The translations under genes were made by a program, and so were the position numbers. Source: a bacterium (GTDB taxonomy: Bacteria; 4484-113; JAFGCY01). Taken from it: a DNA stretch of 64,000 nucleotides. The stretch spans positions 108,010 through 172,009 of the forward strand of contig JADZFO010000038.1 of assembly GCA_020849855.1 (NCBI GenBank). The letters run 5' to 3'. The notes under the pieces were generated by a model, which saw only the letters and a program-made list of their open reading frames with translations, was not told the origin of the DNA and made no database searches. Of this stretch, positions 2,264 to 54,061 are shown in pieces. The first letter of the stretch is position 1. Each line of letters opens with the position of its first letter.

Positions 2264-2662
2264 ATGAACACAACAGGCGAATACAACTGGGTGGCGCTGT
2301 TCCTATTTGGCGGCGCCTGTGTGCTGGGGCTGGCCTTCGCCCTGGCCGCCCTGCTGCGCCCCAGCAACCCCGGCCTGTTCAAGCGCCTGACCTTCGAGAG
2401 CGGCGCGCGGGCCCTGGGCGACGCGCTGGTGCGCTTTAACGTGCGCTTCTATATCCTGGCCATCGTCTTCCTGATGTTCGACGTGGACGTGGTCTTCATC
2501 TTCCCCTGGGCCGCGGCCTTCCGCCTGCTGGTCTTTGGCGAGGAGAACCGCCTCTTCACCCCGATGGGCCCGGCCTGCCTGTGGGAGATGTTTGTCTTCA
2601 TCGGCATCCTGATGCTGGGCTGGGCCTATGCCTACCGCAAGGGGGCGCTGGAATGGGTCTAG
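2264..2662 (+). CDS. nuoA: NADH-quinone oxidoreductase subunit A-like (NuoA/Nqo7 family) membrane subunit
   Basis: 132 aa, 3 TM helices, diagnostic NuoA motif FDVDVVFIFPWA and a loop region ERLTFESGARALGDA. Confidence 0.85.
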   Translation: MNTTGEYNWVALFLFGGACVLGLAFALAALLRPSNPGLFKRLTFESGARALGDALVRFNVRFYILAIVFLMFDVDVVFIFPWAAAFRLLVFGEENRLFTPMGPACLWEMFVFIGILMLGWAYAYRKGALEWV

Positions 2663-2667
2663 GGAAG

Positions 2668-2878
2668 AGTGCTGATTGCGGATTGCTGATTTCTGATTCT
2701 CCGGAGCGCCTTGCCCATGGCAGGGCGCGCGGCAATCCCAGCATAGGCGAGTCGGCCGGTCGCAGCACTTGCTTCGATTTCCCCAGCTTTGGCCTGGAAT
2801 CAGCAGAGGCTTCTGCAAAGCTGACAGCTCTTAACAATCATCAATCAGCAATCATCACTCAGCAATCCGGCGGTGACT
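2668..2878. repeat. MITE-like intergenic element with terminal inverted repeats (TGCTGATTGCGGATTGCTGATT ... AATCATCAATCAGCAATCATCACTCAGCAATCC)
   Basis: The region between the nuoA-like and nuoB-like genes is flanked by ATTGCTGATTGC / GCAATCAGCAAT-type inverted repeats. A second copy of the same TIR family lies at 6340..6480. Confidence 0.5.
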
Positions 2879-2882
2879 CGGC

Positions 2883-3428
2883 ATGAGTATCGCAACTTCG
2901 CTGGAAAAGCTGATCCGCGAGTGCACCGCCCGCAGCCTCTGGCCGCTGACCCTGGGCCTGGACTATGCAACCCTCGAGATCTTCTCTGCCATCGGCCCGC
3001 AGTACGACATTGCGCGCCTGGGCAGCGAGGTGATGCGCCCCAGCCCGCGGCAGGTGGACCTGCTGATCATCGGCGGGGCGGTGACGGCCAAGATGGCGCC
3101 GGTGCTGCGCGGCCTGTATGAAAGCATGGCCGAGCCGCGCTTTGTGATGGCGCTGGGCAACGGGGCGATCAGCGGCGCGCCCTACAGCGGCAGCTACAAC
3201 GTGCTGCCGGGCATCGACGGGCTCCTGCCGGTGGACATCTTTGTGCCCGGCGACCCGCCGCGGCCGCAGCAGATCATGGAAGCGATCCTGCAGCTTGGCG
3301 AGGCCATCGCCAGCGGGAAGGCCCGCGGCGCGCAGAGCCTGGGCCGCTACCACCCCGAGCGCCTGGCCTACCTGCCGGCCGCGATGGTGGCGGGCAACAT
3401 CTGGCCGGAGGAAGACAATGCTTCCTGA
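2883..3428 (+). CDS. NuoB/Nqo6-like (NiFe-hydrogenase small-subunit fold) protein LACKING all four Fe-S cluster N2 cysteines
   Basis: 181 aa; clear NuoB backbone (WPLT.GL...RxGxEVxRxSPRQxD..I..G.VT.KMAP.L...Y..M.EP..V...G..A.SG.PY..SY.V..G.D...PVD..VPG.PPRP). The canonical CC is DY here (GLDYATLE), GACA is GNGA, and PGCPP is PGDPP. Confidence 0.85.
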   Translation: MSIATSLEKLIRECTARSLWPLTLGLDYATLEIFSAIGPQYDIARLGSEVMRPSPRQVDLLIIGGAVTAKMAPVLRGLYESMAEPRFVMALGNGAISGAPYSGSYNVLPGIDGLLPVDIFVPGDPPRPQQIMEAILQLGEAIASGKARGAQSLGRYHPERLAYLPAAMVAGNIWPEEDNAS

Positions 3429-4377
3429 GGCCGCGCTGAGTCTGCTGCGCGAGGTCAGTGAAGCCCACGGCGGCTGCCTGCTGATTGATGGCCGGCGCGG
3501 CCGCGCGCTGCTGTCGGATACCGCACGCCTGCTGGATGTGTGCAAGGGCCTGCGCCGCGGCGGCTTCACCCGCGCGATTGATTTCACAGCGATGCATGTA
3601 GGGGCGAGTCTTGACTCGCCCTCTTCAACAATGCGAGCATCAGGGAAGGCGGGTCAAGACCCGCCCCTACAGAATCAGGCGGGTCAAGACCCGCCCCTAC
3701 AGAATCAGGCGGGCCAGGACCCGCCACTACAGAATCAGGCAGGTCAGGACCCGCCACTACAGGAAGCGGCGGGCACAGAGGCCCGTTCCACCGAAGACGG
3801 GCCGAGACAAGCTCGGCCCCTACAAAACGACTTCGCCTTCTTCCTGCAGCTGCGGGCGCCGAAGTTCGGGCACAGCGGCATTCTGCTGAAATGGAAGTGG
3901 AGCCTGATTGAGCAGGCCCACCCGAGCCTGAGCCTGGTCTGGGCCTCCTGCGGCCTGGCCGAGCGCGAGATGCTGGAGATGCTGGGCGTCCCCTTCGCCG
4001 GGAATCCCGACCTGCGCCCGCTGCTGCTGGACATGCGCTTCGCCGGCCATCCCCTGCGCCGCGATTTCAAGAGCCCGCCGCCCCAGGACTACGCCAGCGC
4101 CCTGCTGGCGGACCGGCATGAGGCCGGGCTGATCTTTGGCCTGCGGCAGGCGGCGGAGAACAGGGGCACAACTCGGCCCTCAGGTTCCGCTTCCGACAAT
4201 ACAGGCGCATCGACTTCGCTCGACAGTCCCGCGTCCCGAGTCCTGAGTCCTGACGCACAAAAGCGCTCCGCCGAGGCAATGGACTACAGCGCAGAGCTGG
4301 GTATAGGCGAGAAGGGACTCAGGACCCAGGACTCAGGACAGCCCGGAAGCAGCGCGACGGAGGGCACAGCACCATGA
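3418..4377 (+). CDS. NuoC/Nqo5-like (30 kDa subunit) protein with an in-frame repeat insertion (4x GQDPPLQNQA) and a low-complexity C-terminal tail
   Basis: ORF track gives 3241..4377, but its 5' part overlaps nuoB in another frame. Start set at ATG 3418 (MLPEAALSLL), overlapping the nuoB stop. NuoC C-terminal signature W.SL...W.S..W.EREM.EM.GV.F.G.PDLR.LL......GHPLRRDF is present. An inserted segment is encoded by palindromic DNA repeats. Confidence 0.75.
   Translation: MLPEAALSLLREVSEAHGGCLLIDGRRGRALLSDTARLLDVCKGLRRGGFTRAIDFTAMHVGASLDSPSSTMRASGKAGQDPPLQNQAGQDPPLQNQAGQDPPLQNQAGQDPPLQEAAGTEARSTEDGPRQARPLQNDFAFFLQLRAPKFGHSGILLKWKWSLIEQAHPSLSLVWASCGLAEREMLEMLGVPFAGNPDLRPLLLDMRFAGHPLRRDFKSPPPQDYASALLADRHEAGLIFGLRQAAENRGTTRPSGSASDNTGASTSLDSPASRVLSPDAQKRSAEAMDYSAELGIGEKGLRTQDSGQPGSSATEGTAP
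3599..3780. repeat. in-frame palindromic repeat block: GGGGCGAGTCTTGACTCGCCC followed by 4 tandem ~30-bp units each containing the hairpin GGCGGGTC-AA-GACCCGCC
   Basis: Seen directly in the DNA. It is translated within the nuoC-like ORF as VGASLDSP...(AGQDPPLQNQ)x4. The same units recur in the nuoD-like gene, metG and aacS. Confidence 0.8.
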
Positions 4378-5606
4378 CGCTCTCCTCAATCCGCCGCGTT
4401 GAAAAGAGATACGACCCGCTGCTGACCGAGACCATCGTGGTCTCCGTCGGACCGCAGCACCCCTCCCTGGTCAGCCCGGTGCAGCTGCACATCCAGGCCG
4501 ACGGTGAGCTGATCGAGCGCGTCACCGTCGAGCAGGGATTCATGCACCGCGGCATCGAGATGCTGTGCAGCCAGCGCGACTGGGCCGGCTGCGCCGCGCT
4601 GCTTTCCCGCACTGAATGGCTGGCCGGGATGAACGGCCACTTCCTGCTGAGCAGCGCCATCGAGGAGCTTTCCGGCCTTGAAGTGCCGCAGCGCGCCCAG
4701 TTCCTGCGCAGCCTGGTGCTGGAGCTGGGGCGCCTGAGCAGCCACCTGTACTGGTTTGGCGACCTGGGCCTGGAGGTTGGCGCGGTGACGCCGGTCTTCT
4801 GGGCCATGCGCGAGCGCGAGCCGCTGCTGGAGCTGCTGGACATGCTTTCCGGCCACCGCTGGCACGGGGCCTACATCGTCCCAGGCGGGGTCAGCCATGA
4901 GCCGCCGGCGGCCTTCTATCAGCGCCTGCGCGCCTGGCTGCCCCTGATGCGCCGGCGGATCAACTCCTATGAGGAGTACTTCAGCGATAACGCCATCTGG
5001 GTCAACCGCAGCGAGCTGATCGGCGTGCTGGAAACCGACTACGCAATCAAGAACGGGGCCTCCGGCCCGGTGGCGCGGGCCAGCGCGGTGGACTGCGACC
5101 TGCGCCGCGACGCCCCTTATGCCGCCTACGGCGAGCTGAGCTTCAAGGTGCCGCTGGGCGAGTACGGCGACGCCCTCGACCGCTTCCGCGTCCGCTTTAT
5201 GGAAATGCGCGAAAGCATGAACATGGTCGAGCAGTGCCTGGATGCACTGGCCGGGGCCGAGCTTGGGTCCGCCCGGCTTGTAGGGGCGAGTCTTGACTCG
5301 CCCTCTTTAGCAGCAGGTATACAAGGGAAGGCGGGTCAAGACCCGCCACTACAGAATCAGGCGGGTCAAGACCCGCCCATACAAATCCCCGCCGGCGAGG
5401 CCTTTGTGTCGGTCGAAGGGCCGCGCGGCGAGCTGGCGCTGAGCGTCGTTTCCGACGGCGGGCACGGCCCGGCCCGTGTGCACCTGCGCGGGCCGAGCAT
5501 GTACCACCTGCACCTGCTGGACGAGCTTTGCCGCGGCTATCTGCTGGCCGACCTCTTCGTTATCTATGCCAGCCTCGACATCATGGTTGGGGAGGCGGAC
5601 CGATGA
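4374..5606 (+). CDS. NuoD/Nqo4-like (NiFe-hydrogenase large-subunit fold) protein without NiFe cysteines and without the conserved quinone-site His; carries an in-frame palindromic insertion
   Basis: 410 aa; ATGA overlap with nuoC. N-terminal GPQHPS...HRGIE (NuoD-like HRGxEK region) with no RxCGxC. C-terminal SLDIMVGEADR resembles the NuoD end SLDIVFGEVDR, not the hydrogenase DPCxxCxxH. The usual NFGPQHPAAHGVLRL is GPQHPSLVSPVQL (His absent). Insertion ...VGASLDSPSLAAGIQGKAGQDPPLQNQAGQDPPIQ.. at nt 5276-5395. Confidence 0.85.
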   Translation: MTLSSIRRVEKRYDPLLTETIVVSVGPQHPSLVSPVQLHIQADGELIERVTVEQGFMHRGIEMLCSQRDWAGCAALLSRTEWLAGMNGHFLLSSAIEELSGLEVPQRAQFLRSLVLELGRLSSHLYWFGDLGLEVGAVTPVFWAMREREPLLELLDMLSGHRWHGAYIVPGGVSHEPPAAFYQRLRAWLPLMRRRINSYEEYFSDNAIWVNRSELIGVLETDYAIKNGASGPVARASAVDCDLRRDAPYAAYGELSFKVPLGEYGDALDRFRVRFMEMRESMNMVEQCLDALAGAELGSARLVGASLDSPSLAAGIQGKAGQDPPLQNQAGQDPPIQIPAGEAFVSVEGPRGELALSVVSDGGHGPARVHLRGPSMYHLHLLDELCRGYLLADLFVIYASLDIMVGEADR

Positions 5607-5611
5607 GAGAG

Positions 5612-5782
5612 ATGGCTAATGGCAAATGGCTAATGGCTAATGGAGAAGACTGCCGACAAGATGTCGGCGCTCCGTTCGAGACCATCGACGGCGCAATTTG
5701 CCTACCTCCATTTGCCTTTTGCCTTTCCGGGCGCACTCTGTGCGCCCCTACATTAGCCATTAGCCATTCGACATTAGCCATG
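5612..5782. repeat. inverted-repeat (MITE/REP-like) element: ATGGCTAATGGCAAATGGCTAATGGCTAATGG ... CATTAGCCATTAGCCATTCGACATTAGCCAT, containing the REP-like palindrome GGGCGCACTCTGTGCGCCC
   Basis: Direct inspection of the 196-bp gap between the nuoD-like gene and the next gene. The internal palindrome recurs at 53958..54016. A related ATGGCTAATGG fragment is at 10860..10960. Confidence 0.55.
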
Positions 5783-5802
5783 GCCGCGCCGGAGGCAAGG
5801 CC

Positions 5803-6339
5803 GTGAGCATCAACCGCTTTGACAAGTACAAGAACGAGGTGCCGACCGAGGCCGAGCTGGCCGCGCCGAAGTTCCAGGCGGACTTCACACGCCCGCTGCT
5901 GCAGCGGGTCTGGGCCTATTACATGTGGCGCCTGCTGGCGCTGCTGATGTCCATTGCCTGCTTTGTCTGGTATGGCTACTGGTCCGGCAAGGCGGCGATG
6001 GTGGCGCGGGACGACTACCCGAACCTTTACGTTGAGATCAACAATTACCTGGCCAGCCCCTTCAACCACTACTTCGTGGCGCTTTGCGGGATCCTGCTGC
6101 TGGCGATGGCCTTCAGCCCCCTGGGCCTGCGCGGCATGGCCATGCTGGGCAACTGGCAGCTGCTGGTGATCGCCTACTGGGGCGCGCTGGTGGTCTTCCT
6201 GGTCCTGAAGCTGACCGAGCATGTCATCGACTTCGAGGCGCCCTCGGCGCTGAAGGCGGTCTTTTACCCTTATGTGCTGGTGGCCATCGCCCTGAGCTTC
6301 ATGGAGCTGCGCTCGCTGGAAGAAGAGGTGGCCTCATGA
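5803..6339 (+). CDS. hypothetical integral membrane protein (about 4 TM helices) encoded inside the complex-I-like operon
   Basis: 178-aa ORF with hydrophobic segments (LLALLMSIACFVWYGYW, FVALCGILLLAMAF, LLVIAYWGALVVFLVL, YVLVAIALSF). No similarity to a known Nuo subunit recognised. Confidence 0.45.
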   Translation: MSINRFDKYKNEVPTEAELAAPKFQADFTRPLLQRVWAYYMWRLLALLMSIACFVWYGYWSGKAAMVARDDYPNLYVEINNYLASPFNHYFVALCGILLLAMAFSPLGLRGMAMLGNWQLLVIAYWGALVVFLVLKLTEHVIDFEAPSALKAVFYPYVLVAIALSFMELRSLEEEVAS

Positions 6340-6480
6340 GGCGATTGCTGATTGCGGATTGCGGATTGCTGATTGCAAAGAGTGCCTCGCAGGGCAGCAG
6401 CACTGTGCTGCTGACTTCCGCGCGGCTCCGGGAAGTCATCAATCATCAATCATCAGTCAGCAATTGCAGCAAGCGAGGTG
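6340..6480. repeat. second copy of the ATTGCTGATTGC-TIR MITE-like element
   Basis: GATTGCTGATTGCGGATTGCGGATTGCTGATTGC ... TCATCAATCATCAATCATCAGTCAGCAATTGC flanks a GC-rich core. Same TIR family as 2668..2878. Confidence 0.5.
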
Positions 6481-6499
6481 CGACATCCTGAGCACACCC

Positions 6500-16837: not shown

Positions 16838-16917
16838 CTCGTCGTGTCCCTACAGCAATAGTACCCGTGTGTAACCCTTCCTGCAGTCCCGGCCTGCGGG
16901 CGGACATCCGTCCGCCC

Positions 16918-17523
16918 CTACTCATCCAGCAGGGCCGGGTCCAGGATCTCGGCCAGGCGCAGCTTGCCCCGGCGGATATGGGTCCGCACGGTGTTCAGGT
17001 TGAGCTGCATGGCCTCGGCAATCTCTTCATAGCTCAGTTCTTCAAAGTAATACAGGCACAGCGCCACCCGCTGCAGCTCCGGCAGGCGCTTCAGCGCGCG
17101 GCCCAGATCGGTGTTCTGGGCGTGGCCGGCGCTGGCCGACTGGCGCAGGTCCTGGGGCTGGACGCCCACTTCGGCCTGCTCCTCAATGCTCGCGCTGCCC
17201 GGGCGGCTGGCCTTGCGCTTGAGGTGCTGGCGGGCCACATTTATGGCAATGCGGTAGATCCAGCTAGAAAGCTTGGCCTCTCCGCGGAAGCCGCCAAGGC
17301 CCTTATAAGCATTGACAAAGGTCAGCTGGGCCAGGTCCTCGACATCGCTTGCTTCAACGCCCTGGGCGGAGATCACGCCGGCGACCAGGCTGGAGTAGCT
17401 GTCCACAATGCGGGCGAACAAATGGCTCTCGCCGGCGGCAATCCGCCGGCACAAGGCAAGCTCGTCTGTGCCCGTCTCCACTTTTGGCGCCATCCCCAGC
17501 CAGGTGTTGATCCGTGTGAGCAT
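16918..17523 (-). CDS. ECF-type RNA polymerase sigma factor (sigma-70 regions 2 and 4)
   Basis: 201 aa; LAQLTFVNAYKGLGGFRGEAKLSSWIYRIAINVARQHL (region 2) and LPELQRVALCLYYFEELSYEEIAEAMQLNLNTVRTHIRRGKLRL (region 4 HTH). Confidence 0.85.
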   Translation of the reverse strand: MLTRINTWLGMAPKVETGTDELALCRRIAAGESHLFARIVDSYSSLVAGVISAQGVEASDVEDLAQLTFVNAYKGLGGFRGEAKLSSWIYRIAINVARQHLKRKASRPGSASIEEQAEVGVQPQDLRQSASAGHAQNTDLGRALKRLPELQRVALCLYYFEELSYEEIAEAMQLNLNTVRTHIRRGKLRLAEILDPALLDE

Positions 17524-23769: not shown

Positions 23770-25857
23770 CTAGCGCACCACGACGCCGGGATCCAGCGGC
23801 TGCTCAGGGGAGACCAGCGCCAGCTTGCCGCTGTCGCCGCCCGCCGCCAGCACCATGCCCTCGCTCATAAGTCCGCGCATCTTGCGCGGGGCCAGATTCG
23901 CCACGAACACGATCTGCTTGCCGACCAGGCTTTCCGGCGCGTAATACATGGCGATGCCGGCCAGGATGGTGCGCTCGCGCTCGCCGTCAAAAACGGTCAG
24001 CTTAAGCAGCTTGTCGGCGCCTTCCACCTTATCTGCGGCGCGGATTTCGCCGACCCGCAGCTGGACTTTGGCGAAGTCGTCAATCGTAATGAAGGCGTCG
24101 GGGGTTGCGGTCTCGGTGCGGCTCGGCGTGGCGGCGGGTCCTGACCCGCCTTCTCCCTGCTTGGCTTTGGGCGAGTCAAGACTCGCCCCAGCAGGAGCGG
24201 ACCCAGCCCCCGCGCCTGACTCCGCCAGCTTCTTTTCCCAGTCCACACGCATGAAGACCGGCTCGCTGGAGCCGGCCTTGTGTCCCGCGGGAATGCGCTC
24301 ATTTAGCGCGTCAGCCTGCAGGTCCTCAAGCCGGCCGCTGAGGCCCAGGATGCCCCAGAAGCGGTTGGCCGCGCCGGGGATGACCGGATAGGCCAGCAGC
24401 AGCACGGTGCGCAGCACCTGCATCAGGCGGTTGAATACCGTGCTGACCTCGTCCCGGCGCTCGGGCTTCTTCTTCAGCTCCCAGGGCTTCTTTTCGTCGA
24501 TGTACTTGTTGGCTTCGCCGATCAGCTCCCAGATGGCCTGCAGGGCTTCGCTGTACTGCAGGTTCTCAAAGTGCGCCTGGGCTTCATGGATGCTGCGCTT
24601 GCGGCGCTCTTCCAGGGCGTCGTCAAGGTCGCTGACGGCCAGCTCGTCGGGCACGACGCCCTCGAAGAGCTGGTCCAGCATGCTGACCGTGCGGTGCACC
24701 AGGTTGCCCAGGTCGTTGGCCAGGTCATAGTTGAAGCGCTTGACCAGGCGCTCGTGGCTGAAGTCGCCGTCGAGGCCCAGGGGCACCTCGCGGGCCAGGA
24801 AATAGCGCAGGCCGTCCACGCCGACCAGGGCCATGGCGTCCTGCGGGCTGACCACGTTGCCCAGGGACTTGCTCATCTTCTCGCCTTCGAAGTCCCAGTA
24901 GCCGTGGACCAGGAACTGCTTGGGCAGGGCCAGGCCGTAGCTTTCCAGCACCGCCGGGAAGATGATGCAGTGGAACCAGGGGATGTCCTTGGCCATGATG
25001 TGCAGGTCGCAGGGCCAGCGGTTCTGCGCCGGCTGGCTCTTCAGGTCCGCGCGGGTCACGCTGTAAAGGTCGCCGGGCGCCTCGCTGGAGCGGCTGGCCC
25101 AGTTGCCGGGCTCAAAGGTCTTTTCATAGGTATCTATGTCAAAGCCCGAGCCGGTGACATAAGTCAGCAGGGCGTCCATCCAGACATAGAAGACATGCTG
25201 CTCGTCCCAGGGCAGCTTGACGCCCCAGTCGGTGGAGGTGCGGCTGATGCAGATGTCCTTCAGGCCGCCGCGGATGCGGTTGAGCATCTCGTTGCGGCGC
25301 GAGTCCGGGGTGATCAGGCCGGGGTGGGTCTCATGCAGGGCCAGCAGCCAGTCCTGGTAGCGGCTGAGGCGGAAGTAATAGGCCTCTTCGGTCAGGTGCT
25401 TGAGGCGCGGGTGGCTTTCGGGGTTCTCCGGCACCTCGTCCTCGTCCAGGAAGCGGTTGTCGCTGGTGTGGTACCAGCCGCTGTAGGAGCCCTTATAGAT
25501 ATCGCCCTTCTGGTAGATGCGGTTGAAGAAGGTGCGCACCAGGTGATGGTGCCGGGGGTCGCTGGTGCGGTGGAACTCATAGCTCTGGATGTTCACCGCG
25601 GCCCAGGTGTCCCGGAAGCTCGGGACGATTTCATCGCAGAACTGCTGCGGGCTAAGGCCCCTGGCGGCGGCGAGGTCGGCGATGTTCTGGCTGTGCTCGT
25701 CGGAGCCGGTGACCAGCAGGGCCTCGCGGCCCATGAAGCGCGCATGGCGGCAGGCGATGTCCGCGATGATCGTCGTATAGCTGGTGCCGATGTGCGGCTT
25801 GCTGTTGACGTAATAGATCGGCGTCGTGACGTAAAAGCGCTTGTCGTGCTGACTCAT
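23770..25857 (-). CDS. metG: methionine--tRNA ligase with C-terminal tRNA-binding (EMAP/Trbp111-like) domain; carries an in-frame palindromic insertion
   Basis: Start at MSQHDKRFYVTTPIYYVNSKPHIGTSYTTI (HIGH motif). KMSKS motif present. C-terminal ...ITIDDFAKVQLRVGEIRAADKVEGADKLLKLTVFDG.. Insert AGASLDSPKAKQGEGGSGPAATPS is encoded by GGGCGAGTCAAGACTCGCCC and GGCGGGTCCTGACCCGCC at nt 24120-24200. ORF track extends to 25941 but the region upstream of 25857 lacks aaRS sequence. Confidence 0.9.
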   Translation of the reverse strand: MSQHDKRFYVTTPIYYVNSKPHIGTSYTTIIADIACRHARFMGREALLVTGSDEHSQNIADLAAARGLSPQQFCDEIVPSFRDTWAAVNIQSYEFHRTSDPRHHHLVRTFFNRIYQKGDIYKGSYSGWYHTSDNRFLDEDEVPENPESHPRLKHLTEEAYYFRLSRYQDWLLALHETHPGLITPDSRRNEMLNRIRGGLKDICISRTSTDWGVKLPWDEQHVFYVWMDALLTYVTGSGFDIDTYEKTFEPGNWASRSSEAPGDLYSVTRADLKSQPAQNRWPCDLHIMAKDIPWFHCIIFPAVLESYGLALPKQFLVHGYWDFEGEKMSKSLGNVVSPQDAMALVGVDGLRYFLAREVPLGLDGDFSHERLVKRFNYDLANDLGNLVHRTVSMLDQLFEGVVPDELAVSDLDDALEERRKRSIHEAQAHFENLQYSEALQAIWELIGEANKYIDEKKPWELKKKPERRDEVSTVFNRLMQVLRTVLLLAYPVIPGAANRFWGILGLSGRLEDLQADALNERIPAGHKAGSSEPVFMRVDWEKKLAESGAGAGSAPAGASLDSPKAKQGEGGSGPAATPSRTETATPDAFITIDDFAKVQLRVGEIRAADKVEGADKLLKLTVFDGERERTILAGIAMYYAPESLVGKQIVFVANLAPRKMRGLMSEGMVLAAGGDSGKLALVSPEQPLDPGVVVR

Positions 25858-25993
25858 CGAAATGCCCCTTCGCCCAAGCGCAGCGGCAGATGAGCCGCAG
25901 CCTGTGTTCGGGCGAAGGGGAAGTATAACGCGGGCGGGCATAGGCTGCCTGGATCTTTACGGCGGCCCGCCCCGCTAAGGGAGCTGCCTGGGC

Positions 25994-41886: not shown

Positions 41887-42068
41887 CTGACAACACAGCG
41901 CACATTGCAGCAAAACACAGCGCACCTTTTGCAAACCGAACTCGCATGCGAAAGCCGATTTCTACTTGAGGCGAGCTGCTCTATCTTGAGCTCTGCGGCT
42001 CCTTGGCTCCGGTGAACCGTGAGAAGGGCGGCGACTGCGCGCCGCCCCAACAGGGATAATGCATCTGC

Positions 42069-43382: not shown

Positions 43383-43554
43383 AGCCTGTACTTGCAAGGG
43401 TGCAGGCCTGCCTGCACTTGTAGGGTGCAGGCCTGCCTGCACCATTTCCGGAGGTGCACGCACGCCTGCACCCTACCGACCTCGATAGCAGAGCGCCCGG
43501 GCGGGATGCCCGGGCGCAATGTCACCTGACTCGCAGGTCAGCCGATAGAGATGA

Positions 43555-46341: not shown

Positions 46342-46505
46342 GTCAGTTTATTCGGCTCTGCGTAACTCTGCGCCCTCTGCGTCTCTGCGTTTGGATCGGA
46401 ACGCAGCATTCGTGCGAGCTGTAACGGATAGAAGAATGCCGGCTAAAGCCGGCGCTCCGACAGGAAGGGGAAGGTGCAGGCACGCATGCATCCTACAATA
46501 ATGCG

Positions 46506-48836
<2,331 letters not shown>

Positions 48837-53957: not shown

Positions 53958-54016
53958 GCGCCGGGCGCAGGCTGTGCGCCCCCACATATCGGATCCGGGC
54001 GCACTCTGTGCGCCCC
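53958..54016. repeat. two REP-like palindromes (GGGCGCAGGCTGTGCGCCC and GGGCGCACTCTGTGCGCCCCTAC) in the convergent gap between the methyltransferase and kinase-like genes
   Basis: Same palindromic unit as at 5718-5740. Could double as a bidirectional terminator. Confidence 0.5.
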
Positions 54017-54061
54017 TACCCTTCAGCAACACTGCCTTGTGCCTTGCGACTTTTGTCCTGA

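What the first reader, a model, noticed from the sequence alone, without database searches (positions are those of the whole stretch)
24120..24200. Same palindromic element inserted in frame in metG (between the catalytic core and the C-terminal tRNA-binding domain)
The minus-strand metG carries GGCGGGTCCTGACCCGCC and GGGCGAGTCAAGACTCGCCC, translated as ...GGSGPAA... and ...AGASLDSPKAK.... Because the elements are palindromic they yield the same peptide (GASLDSP) regardless of insertion orientation. This is independent evidence of mobility into an essential gene at a linker position.
Basis: seen in the sequence. Interest (0 to 1): 0.55.

Follow-up and report, generated by a model that had tools for sequence, protein, structure and literature searches.

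The report
REP hairpin pair inside metG linker
Two small GC-rich palindromes of the widespread "GTAG-tagged REP" repeat type sit in frame in the flexible tether between two domains of the methionyl-tRNA synthetase gene of an uncultured Planctomycetes-like bacterium, adding about 22 apparently tolerated residues; the case is real and clear, but this kind of repeat inside genes has been described before.

Summary
GGCGGGTCCTGACCCGCC (24133-24150) and GGGCGAGTCAAGACTCGCCC (24169-24188) lie in the minus-strand metG ORF and read ...PAGASLDSPKAKQGEGGSGPAAT.... Together they form one unit, a head-head dimer of REP-type hairpins. The same dimer occurs in frame in nuoC and nuoD of this window.

The metG copy lies between the anticodon-binding and C-terminal tRNA_bind domains, in the only internal low-confidence stretch of an AlphaFold model. 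The two closest MetRS orthologs (86% and 74% identity) have no palindrome there. Three more distant orthologs carry different hairpins in the same linker.

In the sister genome all five exact copies are in frame inside genes, including nuoD at the same site. In Oscillospiraceae genomes the same dimer is almost always intergenic. With intact GTAG tags only one reading frame per strand lacks stop codons, which explains the recurring VGASLDSP peptide.

Intragenic GTAG REPs, including in tRNA synthetases and a PVC bacterium, were described by Di Nocera et al. 2013. I rate this a new member of a known kind.

Still open: no RAYT transposase in the window, no clean empty site, a uniform sense orientation, and unusually strong hairpin conservation.

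The parts
23770..25860 (-). metG (methionyl-tRNA synthetase with a C-terminal tRNA_bind/Trbp111-like domain). The ORF is intact. The longest ORF extends to 25941; the probable start is MSQHDKRF at 25860.
   Evidence: ORF list; Pfam tRNA-synt_1g, Anticodon_3, tRNA_bind; PDB MetRS matches; orthologs of 667-755 aa; AF2 mean pLDDT 90.5.
24128..24192 (-). REP head-head dimer (REPIN-like), 65 nt, read in frame as about A557-T578 of the 696-aa protein (AGASLDSPKAKQGEGGSGPAAT).
   Evidence: Alignment with the nuoC and nuoD dimers; head, spacer and tail table; the sense strand as RNA folds into one long hairpin, -48.9 kcal/mol, z -3.2, 0/200 shuffles.
24169..24188 (-). Hairpin 1: GGGCGAGTC-TT-GACTCGCCC on the coding strand (9-bp stem), coding GASLDSP.
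   Evidence: Identical 20-mer in nuoC, nuoD, 5 loci of the sister MAG and many other genomes.
24189..24192 (-). Degenerate head tag GCTG in place of GTAG. The TAG stop of the canonical tag is lost.
   Evidence: The sister nuoC-tail copy has GCAG.
24151..24168 (-). 18-nt spacer (AAAGCCAAGCAGGGAGAA), coding KAKQGE. This is the short-spacer class, shared with sister locus L036.
24133..24150 (-). Hairpin 2: GGCGGGTC-AG-GACCCGCC on the coding strand (8-bp stem), coding GGSGPA.
24128..24131 (-). Degenerate tag of hairpin 2: CCAC on the coding strand, which is GTGG on the other strand (a GTRG-type variant of GTAG).
   Evidence: GTRG and GTGG variants are described in PMC3733652.
3598..3823 (+). Related in-frame REP block in nuoC: GTAG-hairpin 1, a 26-nt spacer, four tandem 30-nt hairpin-2 units coding (AGQDPPLQNQ)x4, and a further GGGCCGAG...CTCGGCCC-CTAC hairpin.
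   Evidence: The Pfam Complex1_30kDa match resumes at profile position 37 straight after the block.
5280..5382 (+). Related in-frame REP dimer plus one extra 30-nt unit in a variable loop of nuoD. The site is shared with the sister genome.
46860..46994 (+). In-frame block of related GYAG/CTRC-tagged hairpins in an AMP-binding (acetyl/acetoacetyl-CoA synthetase-like) gene, between the ACAS_N and AMP-binding domains.

Best explanation
Positions 24128-24192 are a head-head dimer of GTAG-class REP hairpins (two inverted REPs, REPIN-like) lodged in frame in the disordered tether between the anticodon-binding domain and the C-terminal tRNA-binding domain of MetRS. It belongs to a repeat superfamily with a conserved GTAGGGGC...GCCCCTAC clamp and a variable inner stem. 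This superfamily is found in many phyla. In this Planctomycetes-like lineage it has repeatedly settled in variable loops, linkers and tails of housekeeping proteins. SHOWN: the identity of the element, its in-frame position in an intact gene, its absence from the two closest orthologs, recurrent colonisation of the same linker and of a NuoD loop by different hairpins, and the fact that only one frame per strand is free of stops. INFERRED: (a) the copy arose by insertion in the window's lineage after it split from the sister species; (b) only insertions that kept the frame and landed in a permissive tether survived, so the roughly 22 extra residues are a tolerated passenger and not a functional module; (c) spread is catalysed in trans by a single-copy RAYT/TnpA-REP HUH tyrosine transposase acting on folded single-stranded hairpins, as established for other GTAG REPs.
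For: Same element. Linker position: Pfam; the hairpin-coded residues fall in alignment gaps against solved full-length MetRS 9shc; the only internal AF2 segment with pLDDT below 50 is residues 553-587, which contains the element. Absence from the closest orthologs P0001 (86%) and P0002 (74%), at both protein and DNA level. Other hairpins in the same linker in P0007, P0008 and P0011. REP nature: GTAG head and CTAC tail on the nuo copies. GTAGGGGC is found 10 times against 1.76 expected, 8 of them next to hairpins. The same dimer is intergenic and multicopy in an Oscillospiraceae MAG, and in metagenomes. The long-hairpin fold has z -3.2. Frame filter. In the sister MAG 5/5 exact copies are in frame in genes, including nuoD at the same site. 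The NuoD loop is hypervariable (46-91 aa) and other REP-like peptides occur there in other orthologs. Literature: intragenic GTAG REPs and dimers coding 20-30 aa, most numerous in the PVC bacterium Opitutus terrae and also present in tRNA synthetases, proposed to be tolerated in linkers and loops (PMC3733652). RAYT/TnpA-REP processes single-stranded REPs in vitro (PMC8266576). A Y1_Tnp gene lies on a contig carrying the identical REP (L082).
Against: There is no clean empty site. The linker is not alignable between the window and its closest relative, and the net length difference is 10 codons, not about 22, so insertion with later indels cannot be told apart from other histories. Both tags of the metG copy are degenerate (GCTG, GTGG). 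No Y1_Tnp/RAYT was found in the window: 33 ORFs were scanned with Pfam, and motif, phmmer and jackhmmer probes were also run. The rest of the genome could not be searched. The 65-nt dimer is not a multiple of three, so the true ends of the inserted unit are unknown. At the shared nuoD site the hairpins are 100% conserved between species while the spacer is only about 45% identical. All 7 independent coding sites are in sense orientation. A purely neutral passenger does not predict either of these two observations.
Confidence: 0.8

Rival explanations
1. The hairpins are retained because they act within the gene or its mRNA, for example as a ribosome pause at the domain boundary, as an mRNA stability or processing signal, or as a DNA site for gyrase, IHF or a similar factor. 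On this view they are selected and not merely tolerated.
For: At the orthologous nuoD site both hairpins are 24/24 and 20/20 identical between species whose coding DNA is about 86-90% identical, while the spacer is about 45% identical. Third codon positions in metG are only 77% identical. All 7 independent coding sites in the two genomes have the same sense orientation, on both absolute strands, two-sided p about 0.016. Insertions recur at domain boundaries and loops. The RNA fold is strong. REPs have reported roles in mRNA stability and in gyrase or IHF binding (abstracts; PMC3733652).
Against: The closest orthologs work without it. The contents of such blocks turn over quickly: nuoC site 1 differs between window and sister, and unit numbers vary. 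The same element is mostly intergenic elsewhere. Conservation of REP sequences within and between genomes is also expected from recognition by a transposase or from concerted evolution. The long-hairpin fold has one G.U and one A.C on either strand, so the RNA shows no strand asymmetry. The conservation statistic under protein-level constraint alone is weak (p about 0.05).
Confidence: 0.1
2. The segment reached metG by homologous or templated recombination (gene conversion) from another REP-bearing locus, or by replication slippage at palindromes, and not by transposase-mediated insertion.
For: No target-site signature or clean boundaries can be defined. Tandem 30-nt unit amplification in nuoC and nuoD shows that slippage and recombination act on these blocks. 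No RAYT is present in the window. The 18-nt-spacer variant is shared with a copy in another gene of the sister genome.
Against: Outside the hairpins there is no flanking homology between the metG linker and the other copies to guide recombination. Dispersal of one dimer into many unrelated genes and into intergenic sites across phyla fits transposition better.
Confidence: 0.07
3. Assembly or sequencing artefact: palindromic repeats misjoined into metG during metagenome assembly.
For: The window appears to come from a MAG (its NuoD is annotated only as '[bacterium]' in NCBI). Its MetRS is absent from the protein collection, although its NuoD and a truncated NuoC are present. Read coverage could not be checked.
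Against: The reading frame is preserved through the segment in an otherwise complete MetRS. The same dimer sits at the same nuoD site in an independently assembled sister genome. The metG copy is a distinct variant (own spacer, tags and loop), not a duplicate of a neighbouring copy.
Confidence: 0.02
4. Chance palindromes in a GC-rich, low-complexity linker.
For: The linker is A/P/G-rich and the genome is 65% GC.
Against: 0.03 and 0.14 matches expected against 9 and 17 found. The match to copies in other genes and other genomes is exact over 20 nt. The dimer architecture is shared.
Confidence: 0.01

Closest known systems
GTAG-tagged REPs and their head-head dimers, including intragenic copies (Di Nocera, De Gregorio and Rocco 2013, BMC Genomics 14:522, PMC3733652)
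   Same: Short GC-rich palindrome with a 6-9 bp stem and a 2-nt TY-type loop, tagged by GTAG. Two inverted units with the GTAG termini outside, separated by a short spacer that varies in sequence. Several stem variants coexist in one genome. Copies inside known genes code peptides beginning VG..., and dimers code 20-30 aa. Hosts include a PVC bacterium (Opitutus terrae), Planctomycetes and Chloroflexi, and decorated genes include tRNA synthetases and NADH dehydrogenase subunits.
   Different: This stem sequence and this host lineage are not listed there: GASLDSP and LDSP are absent from their table of intragenic REPs. The GTAG families are printed in a figure I could not read. In the two genomes seen here, every exact copy of this subfamily is intragenic and in sense orientation, whereas they report that REPs are mostly intergenic. 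The spacer here is 17-26 nt, at or below their usual 20-100 bp.
REPIN-RAYT systems (Bertels and Rainey; Nunvar et al. 2010, PMC2817692; PMC3337134; TnpA-REP biochemistry, PMC8266576)
   Same: Two inverted REPs that can fold into one long hairpin. GTAG motif next to the stem. Multicopy and dispersed. A Y1_Tnp gene lies on one contig carrying the identical REP (L082).
   Different: No RAYT was found in the window or in the sister loci, so the defining association is untested for this genome. REPINs are described as extragenic.
Rickettsia palindromic elements (RPE-1 and relatives; Ogata et al. 2000, cited in PMC3733652)
   Same: Palindromic repeats inserted in frame in many housekeeping genes, adding peptide segments that are thought not to disturb the fold.
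   Different: There is no sequence relationship. RPE-1 is longer (about 100-150 bp by my own knowledge) and AT-rich. The shorter RPE-4 and RPE-6 belong to the CGTC-tagged superfamily, not the GTAG one. The host is an alphaproteobacterial intracellular parasite.
Bacterial MITEs occasionally found in coding regions (review PMC10969869)
   Same: Small non-autonomous repeats that can be carried in frame.
   Different: MITEs have terminal inverted repeats and target-site duplications derived from an IS element. No such features are seen here.

Membership tests
GTAG-tagged REP superfamily | Short (20-40 bp) GC-rich palindrome with a 6-13 bp stem and a short loop | tested here: met
   9-bp and 8-bp perfect stems with 2-nt loops.
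GTAG-tagged REP superfamily | GTAG (or GYAG/GTRG) tetranucleotide directly flanking the stem | tested here: inconclusive
   Met for the nuoC, nuoD and sister copies (GTAG/CTAC). In the metG copy hairpin 2 has GTGG (GTRG type), but hairpin 1 has GCTG, which fits none of the published degenerate forms.
GTAG-tagged REP superfamily | Multicopy and dispersed in the genome | tested here: inconclusive
   3 dimers of this subfamily plus about 10 other clamp-type hairpins in 64 kb. GTAGGGGC occurs 10 times against 1.76 expected. There are 5 exact copies in the sister MAG and about 35 in an Oscillospiraceae MAG. The whole source genome is not available.
GTAG-tagged REP superfamily | Predominantly extragenic location | tested here: not met
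   All 3 window copies and 5/5 sister copies of this subfamily are in frame inside genes. Other clamp-type hairpins in the window are intergenic. Intragenic copies are a documented minority state of the family.
REP head-head dimer / REPIN | Two REPs in inverted orientation with a short spacer, able to fold into one long hairpin | tested here: met
   Architecture. The RNA minimum-free-energy structure pairs hairpin 1 with hairpin 2, -48.9 kcal/mol, z -3.2. With DNA parameters the two local hairpins form and the fold is not significant, z -1.7.
REPIN-RAYT system | A cognate single-copy RAYT (Y1_Tnp, HUH) gene in the same genome, typically flanked by its REPs | not testable with these tools
   None in the 64-kb window (Pfam on 33 ORFs; probes). 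A Y1_Tnp was found only on the unrelated contig L082.
REPIN-RAYT system | Cleavage and strand transfer of the REP by the RAYT | not testable with these tools
   This needs biochemistry.
Rickettsia palindromic elements (RPE) | Membership of the RPE sequence families of Rickettsia | tested here: not met
   The sequence carries GTAG-type tags and is GC-rich. The short RPEs are CGTC-tagged. The host is a Planctomycetes-like MAG.
Rickettsia palindromic elements (RPE) | In-frame insertion in housekeeping genes that leaves the ORF intact (behaviour, not membership) | tested here: met
   metG, nuoC, nuoD and the acs-like gene are all open across their blocks.
Curated RNA families (Rfam 15) | Match at gathering score | tested here: not met
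   No match in the window. Only chance-level hits at the site.

The most novel reading that the evidence does not exclude
In this Planctomycetes-like lineage, one REP-dimer subfamily may be specialised for, or selectively kept in, coding DNA. Every exact copy seen (7 independent sites in two genomes) lies in frame, in sense orientation, and at a loop, linker or tail of a housekeeping protein. The hairpins are held invariant between species while the spacer drifts. That would imply either transcription-coupled targeting of the displaced strand by the transposase, or a function of the hairpins within mRNAs, such as pausing translation at domain boundaries.
Probability: 0.1. Interest if true: 0.7.

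Novelty: new member of a known kind. Interest (0 to 1): 0.35.

Why it matters
This is a clean, well-anchored case of selfish palindromic DNA living inside essential genes of a poorly studied lineage. It shows how a stop-codon filter and permissive linkers shape which insertions survive.

There is also a practical point. Such blocks mislead annotation. The public NuoC of this genome starts at a Met inside the repeat block, and the MetRS is missing from the protein collection. They also inflate apparent linker and loop variability in alignments.

The uniform sense orientation and the invariant hairpins are worth testing on complete genomes. If they hold up, they would bear on how REPs are targeted or why they persist.

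Tried and rejected
- **Source contig.** Exact look-ups of the window's MetRS (723 and 696 aa) and of NuoD P0121 found no record. Strain-level presence/absence could therefore not be tested.
- **Clean empty site in metG.** A codon alignment against L001 and L004 shows that the linker is not alignable.
- **Metagenome scans.** The subfamily-specific 25-mer gave 0 hits. The general 20-mer returned mostly gut and rumen Firmicutes intergenic copies and no new Planctomycete sites.
- **Census of proteins carrying the translated dimer.** The word-index search found no candidates. The exhaustive HMMER search returned unrelated decapeptide-repeat proteins, apart from the source's own truncated NuoC.
- **Possible decayed copy in the window's nuoC tail (GASTSLDSPA).** The tails of window and sister do not align and this DNA is not palindromic, so I do not claim it.
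- **NuoD as a replacement.** I first read the NuoD case as replacement of the canonical MEALIHHFK helix. The ortholog alignment shows that the whole clade lacks that helix and that the site is a variable loop, so I rejected that reading.
- **RNA strand asymmetry.** I considered sense-only G.U pairing as an explanation for the orientation bias. Both strands give one wobble and one mismatch, so I rejected it.
- **RAYT search.** Two regex prefilters, phmmer with TnpA and RayT sequences recalled from memory, jackhmmer with the L082 protein and Pfam on 33 window ORFs found none, except on L082.
- **Rfam.** Nothing matched.
Full report
**1. The observation.**

The + strand carries GGCGGGTCCTGACCCGCC at 24133-24150 and GGGCGAGTCAAGACTCGCCC at 24169-24188. 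Both lie in the minus-strand ORF 23770..25941, whose translation contains ...GAGSAPAGASLDSPKAKQGEGGSGPAATPSRTE.... Pfam identifies the ORF as a methionyl-tRNA synthetase, with Anticodon_3 at aa 430-569 and a C-terminal tRNA_bind domain at aa 628-719.

Searches allowing up to 3 mismatches find 9 and 17 matches, against 0.03 and 0.14 expected from shuffles. The other matches cluster at 3600-3760 and 5280-5380. These lie inside ORFs that Pfam calls Complex1_30kDa (nuoC) and Complex1_49kDa (nuoD).

**2. Anatomy.**

On the coding strand the three loci align as one unit:
- a 4-nt head;
- hairpin 1, GGGCGAGTC-TT-GACTCGCCC;
- a spacer;
- hairpin 2, GGCGGGTC-A(A/G)-GACCCGCC;
- a tail.

In nuoC and nuoD the head is GTAG, the tail is (C/A)CTAC and the spacer is 26 nt. 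In metG the head is GCTG, the tail reads CCAC (GTGG on the other strand) and the spacer is 18 nt. A copy in the sister genome's nuoC tail (L036) also has an 18-nt spacer, with a GCAG head. The 8-nt difference in spacer length is why hairpin 2 is read as GGSGPA in metG and as AGQDPP in the nuo genes.

This layout is two inverted units with the GTAG termini on the outside. It matches the head-head REP dimer of Di Nocera et al. 2013: stems of 6-9 bp, short TY loops, spacers that keep their length better than their sequence, and degenerate tags such as GTRG and GTGG (PMC3733652).

As RNA, the sense strand folds best into one long hairpin in which hairpin 1 pairs with hairpin 2 (-48.9 kcal/mol, z -3.2, 0/200 shuffles). 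This is the REPIN geometry. With DNA parameters the two local hairpins form, and the fold is not significant (z -1.7). No Rfam family matches.

**3. A wider family in the window.**

A hairpin scan and the clamp GTAGGGGC (10 copies against 1.76 expected, 8 of them next to hairpins) reveal a family with conserved outer bases (GTAGGGGC...GCCCCTAC) and variable inner stems.
- Intergenic copies lie at about 5729, 16898, 43400-43443 and 53963-54019.
- In-frame blocks lie in nuoC (3598-3823, including four tandem 30-nt units coding AGQDPPLQNQ), in nuoD (5280-5382), in metG, and in an AMP-binding acs-like gene (46860-46994, between the ACAS_N and AMP-binding domains).

**4. Where the metG copy sits in the protein.**

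Against a solved full-length MetRS (9shc), the hairpin-coded residues fall in alignment gaps within the interdomain linker. An AlphaFold2 model built from 70 orthologs has mean pLDDT 90.5. Its only internal low-confidence stretch is residues 553-587, which contains the element-coded residues, about 557-578. The catalytic and anticodon-binding parts and the tRNA_bind domain are complete. The gene looks functional, and the insert lies in a disordered tether.

**5. Comparison with orthologs.**

The closest MetRS is P0001, at 86% identity. It comes from GCA_964512635.1, labelled 'uncultured Planctomycetales bacterium', on a contig syntenic with the window. The next closest is P0002, at 74%.

Neither has GASLDSP or any hairpin with a stem of 7 bp or more in the linker. 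Among 45 orthologs the linker varies from 48 to 76 residues between fixed anchors. The window has 72 and P0001 has 62. The rest of the gene is 86% identical at the nucleotide level, but the linker does not align, so no clean empty site can be drawn.

Three more distant orthologs carry different GC-rich hairpins in the same linker:
- P0007 has GGCGGGT-acggag-ACCCGCC-CCAC.
- P0008 has GCGGCACT-ga-AGTGCCGC-CTAC.
- P0011 has a pair of hairpins.

Absence from the nearest relatives and from the outgroup, together with independent colonisation of the same tether elsewhere, supports gain by insertion into a permissive site. No such ortholog was found.

**6. The same element elsewhere.**

The exact 20-mer occurs in 59 loci of reference genomes.
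- Five are in the sister MAG. All five are in frame in long ORFs and read VGASLDSP: an IleRS-like gene (L035), an amidohydrolase-like gene (L042), an unnamed gene (L024), the nuoC C-terminal tail (L036), and nuoD at exactly the window's site (L054).
- About 35 are in one Oscillospiraceae MAG. There the whole dimer recurs (GTAG-hairpin 1, a spacer of about 30 nt, GGGCGGGTCAAGACCCGCCC-CTAC) but is almost always intergenic.
- Some Chloroflexota and Lawsonibacter loci have it in long ORFs, in either orientation.
- In metagenome contigs it is again mostly intergenic, and it occurs even in genomes of 28-36% GC.
- One such contig (L082) holds many clamp variants. It also holds a Y1_Tnp (IS200-like) gene with an HUH motif and a YIKLNP tyrosine motif.

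**7. Why the peptide is always the same.**

With intact tags, each strand of the dimer has only one frame without stops. The other frames hit TAG in the GTAG tag or TGA in cTTGAc. Any surviving coding copy must therefore read VGASLDSP...AGQDPPL in the sense orientation, or VGAGLDPP...ASQDSPL in the antisense orientation.

It is not tested by these copies, because all of them are in one orientation.

**8. Evolutionary behaviour.**

At the shared nuoD site, hairpin 1 with its tag (24/24) and hairpin 2 (20/20) are identical between the two species. The 26-nt spacer is about 45% identical, the flanking conserved coding DNA is about 90% identical, and the window has one extra 30-nt unit.

In metG, third codon positions are 77% identical between the two genomes, and 80% of conserved-residue codons are unchanged. 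Full identity of the 13 hairpin codons is therefore only mildly unlikely if protein-level constraint is assumed (p about 0.05). It is very unlikely if the hairpins drifted like the spacer.

NuoD orthologs of this clade lack the canonical ...MEALIHHFK... helix. They have a hypervariable loop there of 46-91 aa. Several carry other REP-like peptides in it, for example VGATHASP...RATHASPLQ in P0133. The nuoC internal block also exists in the sister genome, but with different contents apart from one KAGQDPPLQN unit. These blocks therefore turn over by gain, loss and unit amplification, while individual hairpins stay intact.

**9. Mechanism.**

*Shown:* the element's identity, family, position and frame, its presence/absence among relatives, and the stop-codon filter.

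*Inferred from established knowledge of GTAG REPs* (PMC2817692, PMC3337134, PMC8266576, PMC3733652): dispersal by a RAYT/TnpA-REP HUH tyrosine transposase acting on folded single-stranded REPs, followed by survival of only those insertions that keep the frame in a tolerant segment.

No Y1_Tnp was found in the window. Pfam was run on 33 ORFs, and motif and HMM probes were also run. This is expected for a single-copy gene in a 64-kb sample, and it leaves the transposase step untested. The 65-nt dimer is not a multiple of three, so the real ends of the inserted unit are unknown.

**10. Unexplained points.**

All 7 independent coding sites in the two genomes carry GTAG-hairpin 1 first on the sense strand, although the antisense orientation is equally open. 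The window copies lie on both absolute strands, so the bias follows transcription and not the replication strand. The two-sided p is about 0.016 on a small sample.

Taken with the invariant hairpins, this leaves room for a functional or targeting explanation, which I put at about 10%.

**11. Comparison with what is known, and verdict.**

Di Nocera et al. 2013 already report GTAG REPs inside genes. They are most numerous in the PVC bacterium Opitutus terrae. Dimers code 20-30 residues, and decorated genes include tRNA synthetases and NADH dehydrogenase subunits. The authors suggest that such inserts are tolerated in flexible linkers or loops. Rickettsia RPEs behave in the same way but belong to other sequence families.

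The present case is a new member of a known kind: a different stem variant and a new host lineage. It is well supported but not surprising to a specialist. Interest 0.35.

Noticed in passing
window 3598-3823 (nuoC): About 225 nt of REP hairpins lie in frame in nuoC, including four tandem 30-nt units coding (AGQDPPLQNQ)x4. The public protein for this gene (P0242, 248 aa) starts at a Met inside the block, so the annotation appears to have truncated NuoC at the repeat.
   Followed up: partly
window 5280-5382 (nuoD); L054: The REP dimer lies at the same nuoD site in the sister species. NuoD proteins of this whole clade lack the canonical ...MEALIHHFK... helix and have a hypervariable loop (46-91 aa) in its place, which other orthologs fill with other REP-like peptides.
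   Followed up: partly
window 46860-46994: An acetyl/acetoacetyl-CoA-synthetase-like AMP-binding gene carries an in-frame block of four related hairpins (PAGAGQSPRP...APLQDKDGRGQAPPLQDKD...) between its ACAS_N and AMP-binding domains. One of these hairpins, GCCGGCTaaAGCCGGC, also occurs just upstream of the gene at 46438.
   Followed up: partly
window 5729-5751, 16898-16921, 42026-42047, 43400-43443, 53963-54019: Intergenic clamp-type hairpins (GGGC...GCCC, most followed by CTAC) with other inner stems lie close to gene ends.
   Followed up: partly
L082:6851-7354: A RAYT-like Y1_Tnp gene in a 36% GC metagenome contig is itself interrupted in frame, just after its HUH motif, by a GTAG REP dimer coding VGAGFMPARIKRATTGVAPT. 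The same contig holds at least nine different GTAGGGGC... variants, including the exact hairpin 1 of this finding.
   Followed up: partly
L035, L042, L024 (sister MAG GCA_964512635.1): An IleRS-like gene, an amidohydrolase-like gene and a third gene each carry in-frame composite REP blocks that begin with VGASLDSP. Gene identities rest on my reading of the translations, not on a family search.
   Followed up: no
L064, L065, L066 (MetRS orthologs P0007, P0008, P0011): Different GC-rich hairpins, some with a CTAC or CCAC tail, occupy the same MetRS interdomain linker in three distant relatives.
   Followed up: partly
window 23770-25941: The source genome's MetRS is not in the 5.8-billion-protein collection, although its NuoD (100% match, P0121) and truncated NuoC are. 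The gene may have been left unannotated or marked as a pseudogene in the public record.
   Followed up: partly
window 2264-15667: The nuo cluster appears to run nuoA, B, C, D, then a 178-aa protein with no Pfam hit, then a long nuoH-like ORF, with no obvious nuoE/F/G between D and H. Most of these identities are read from the translations and were not tested.
   Followed up: no
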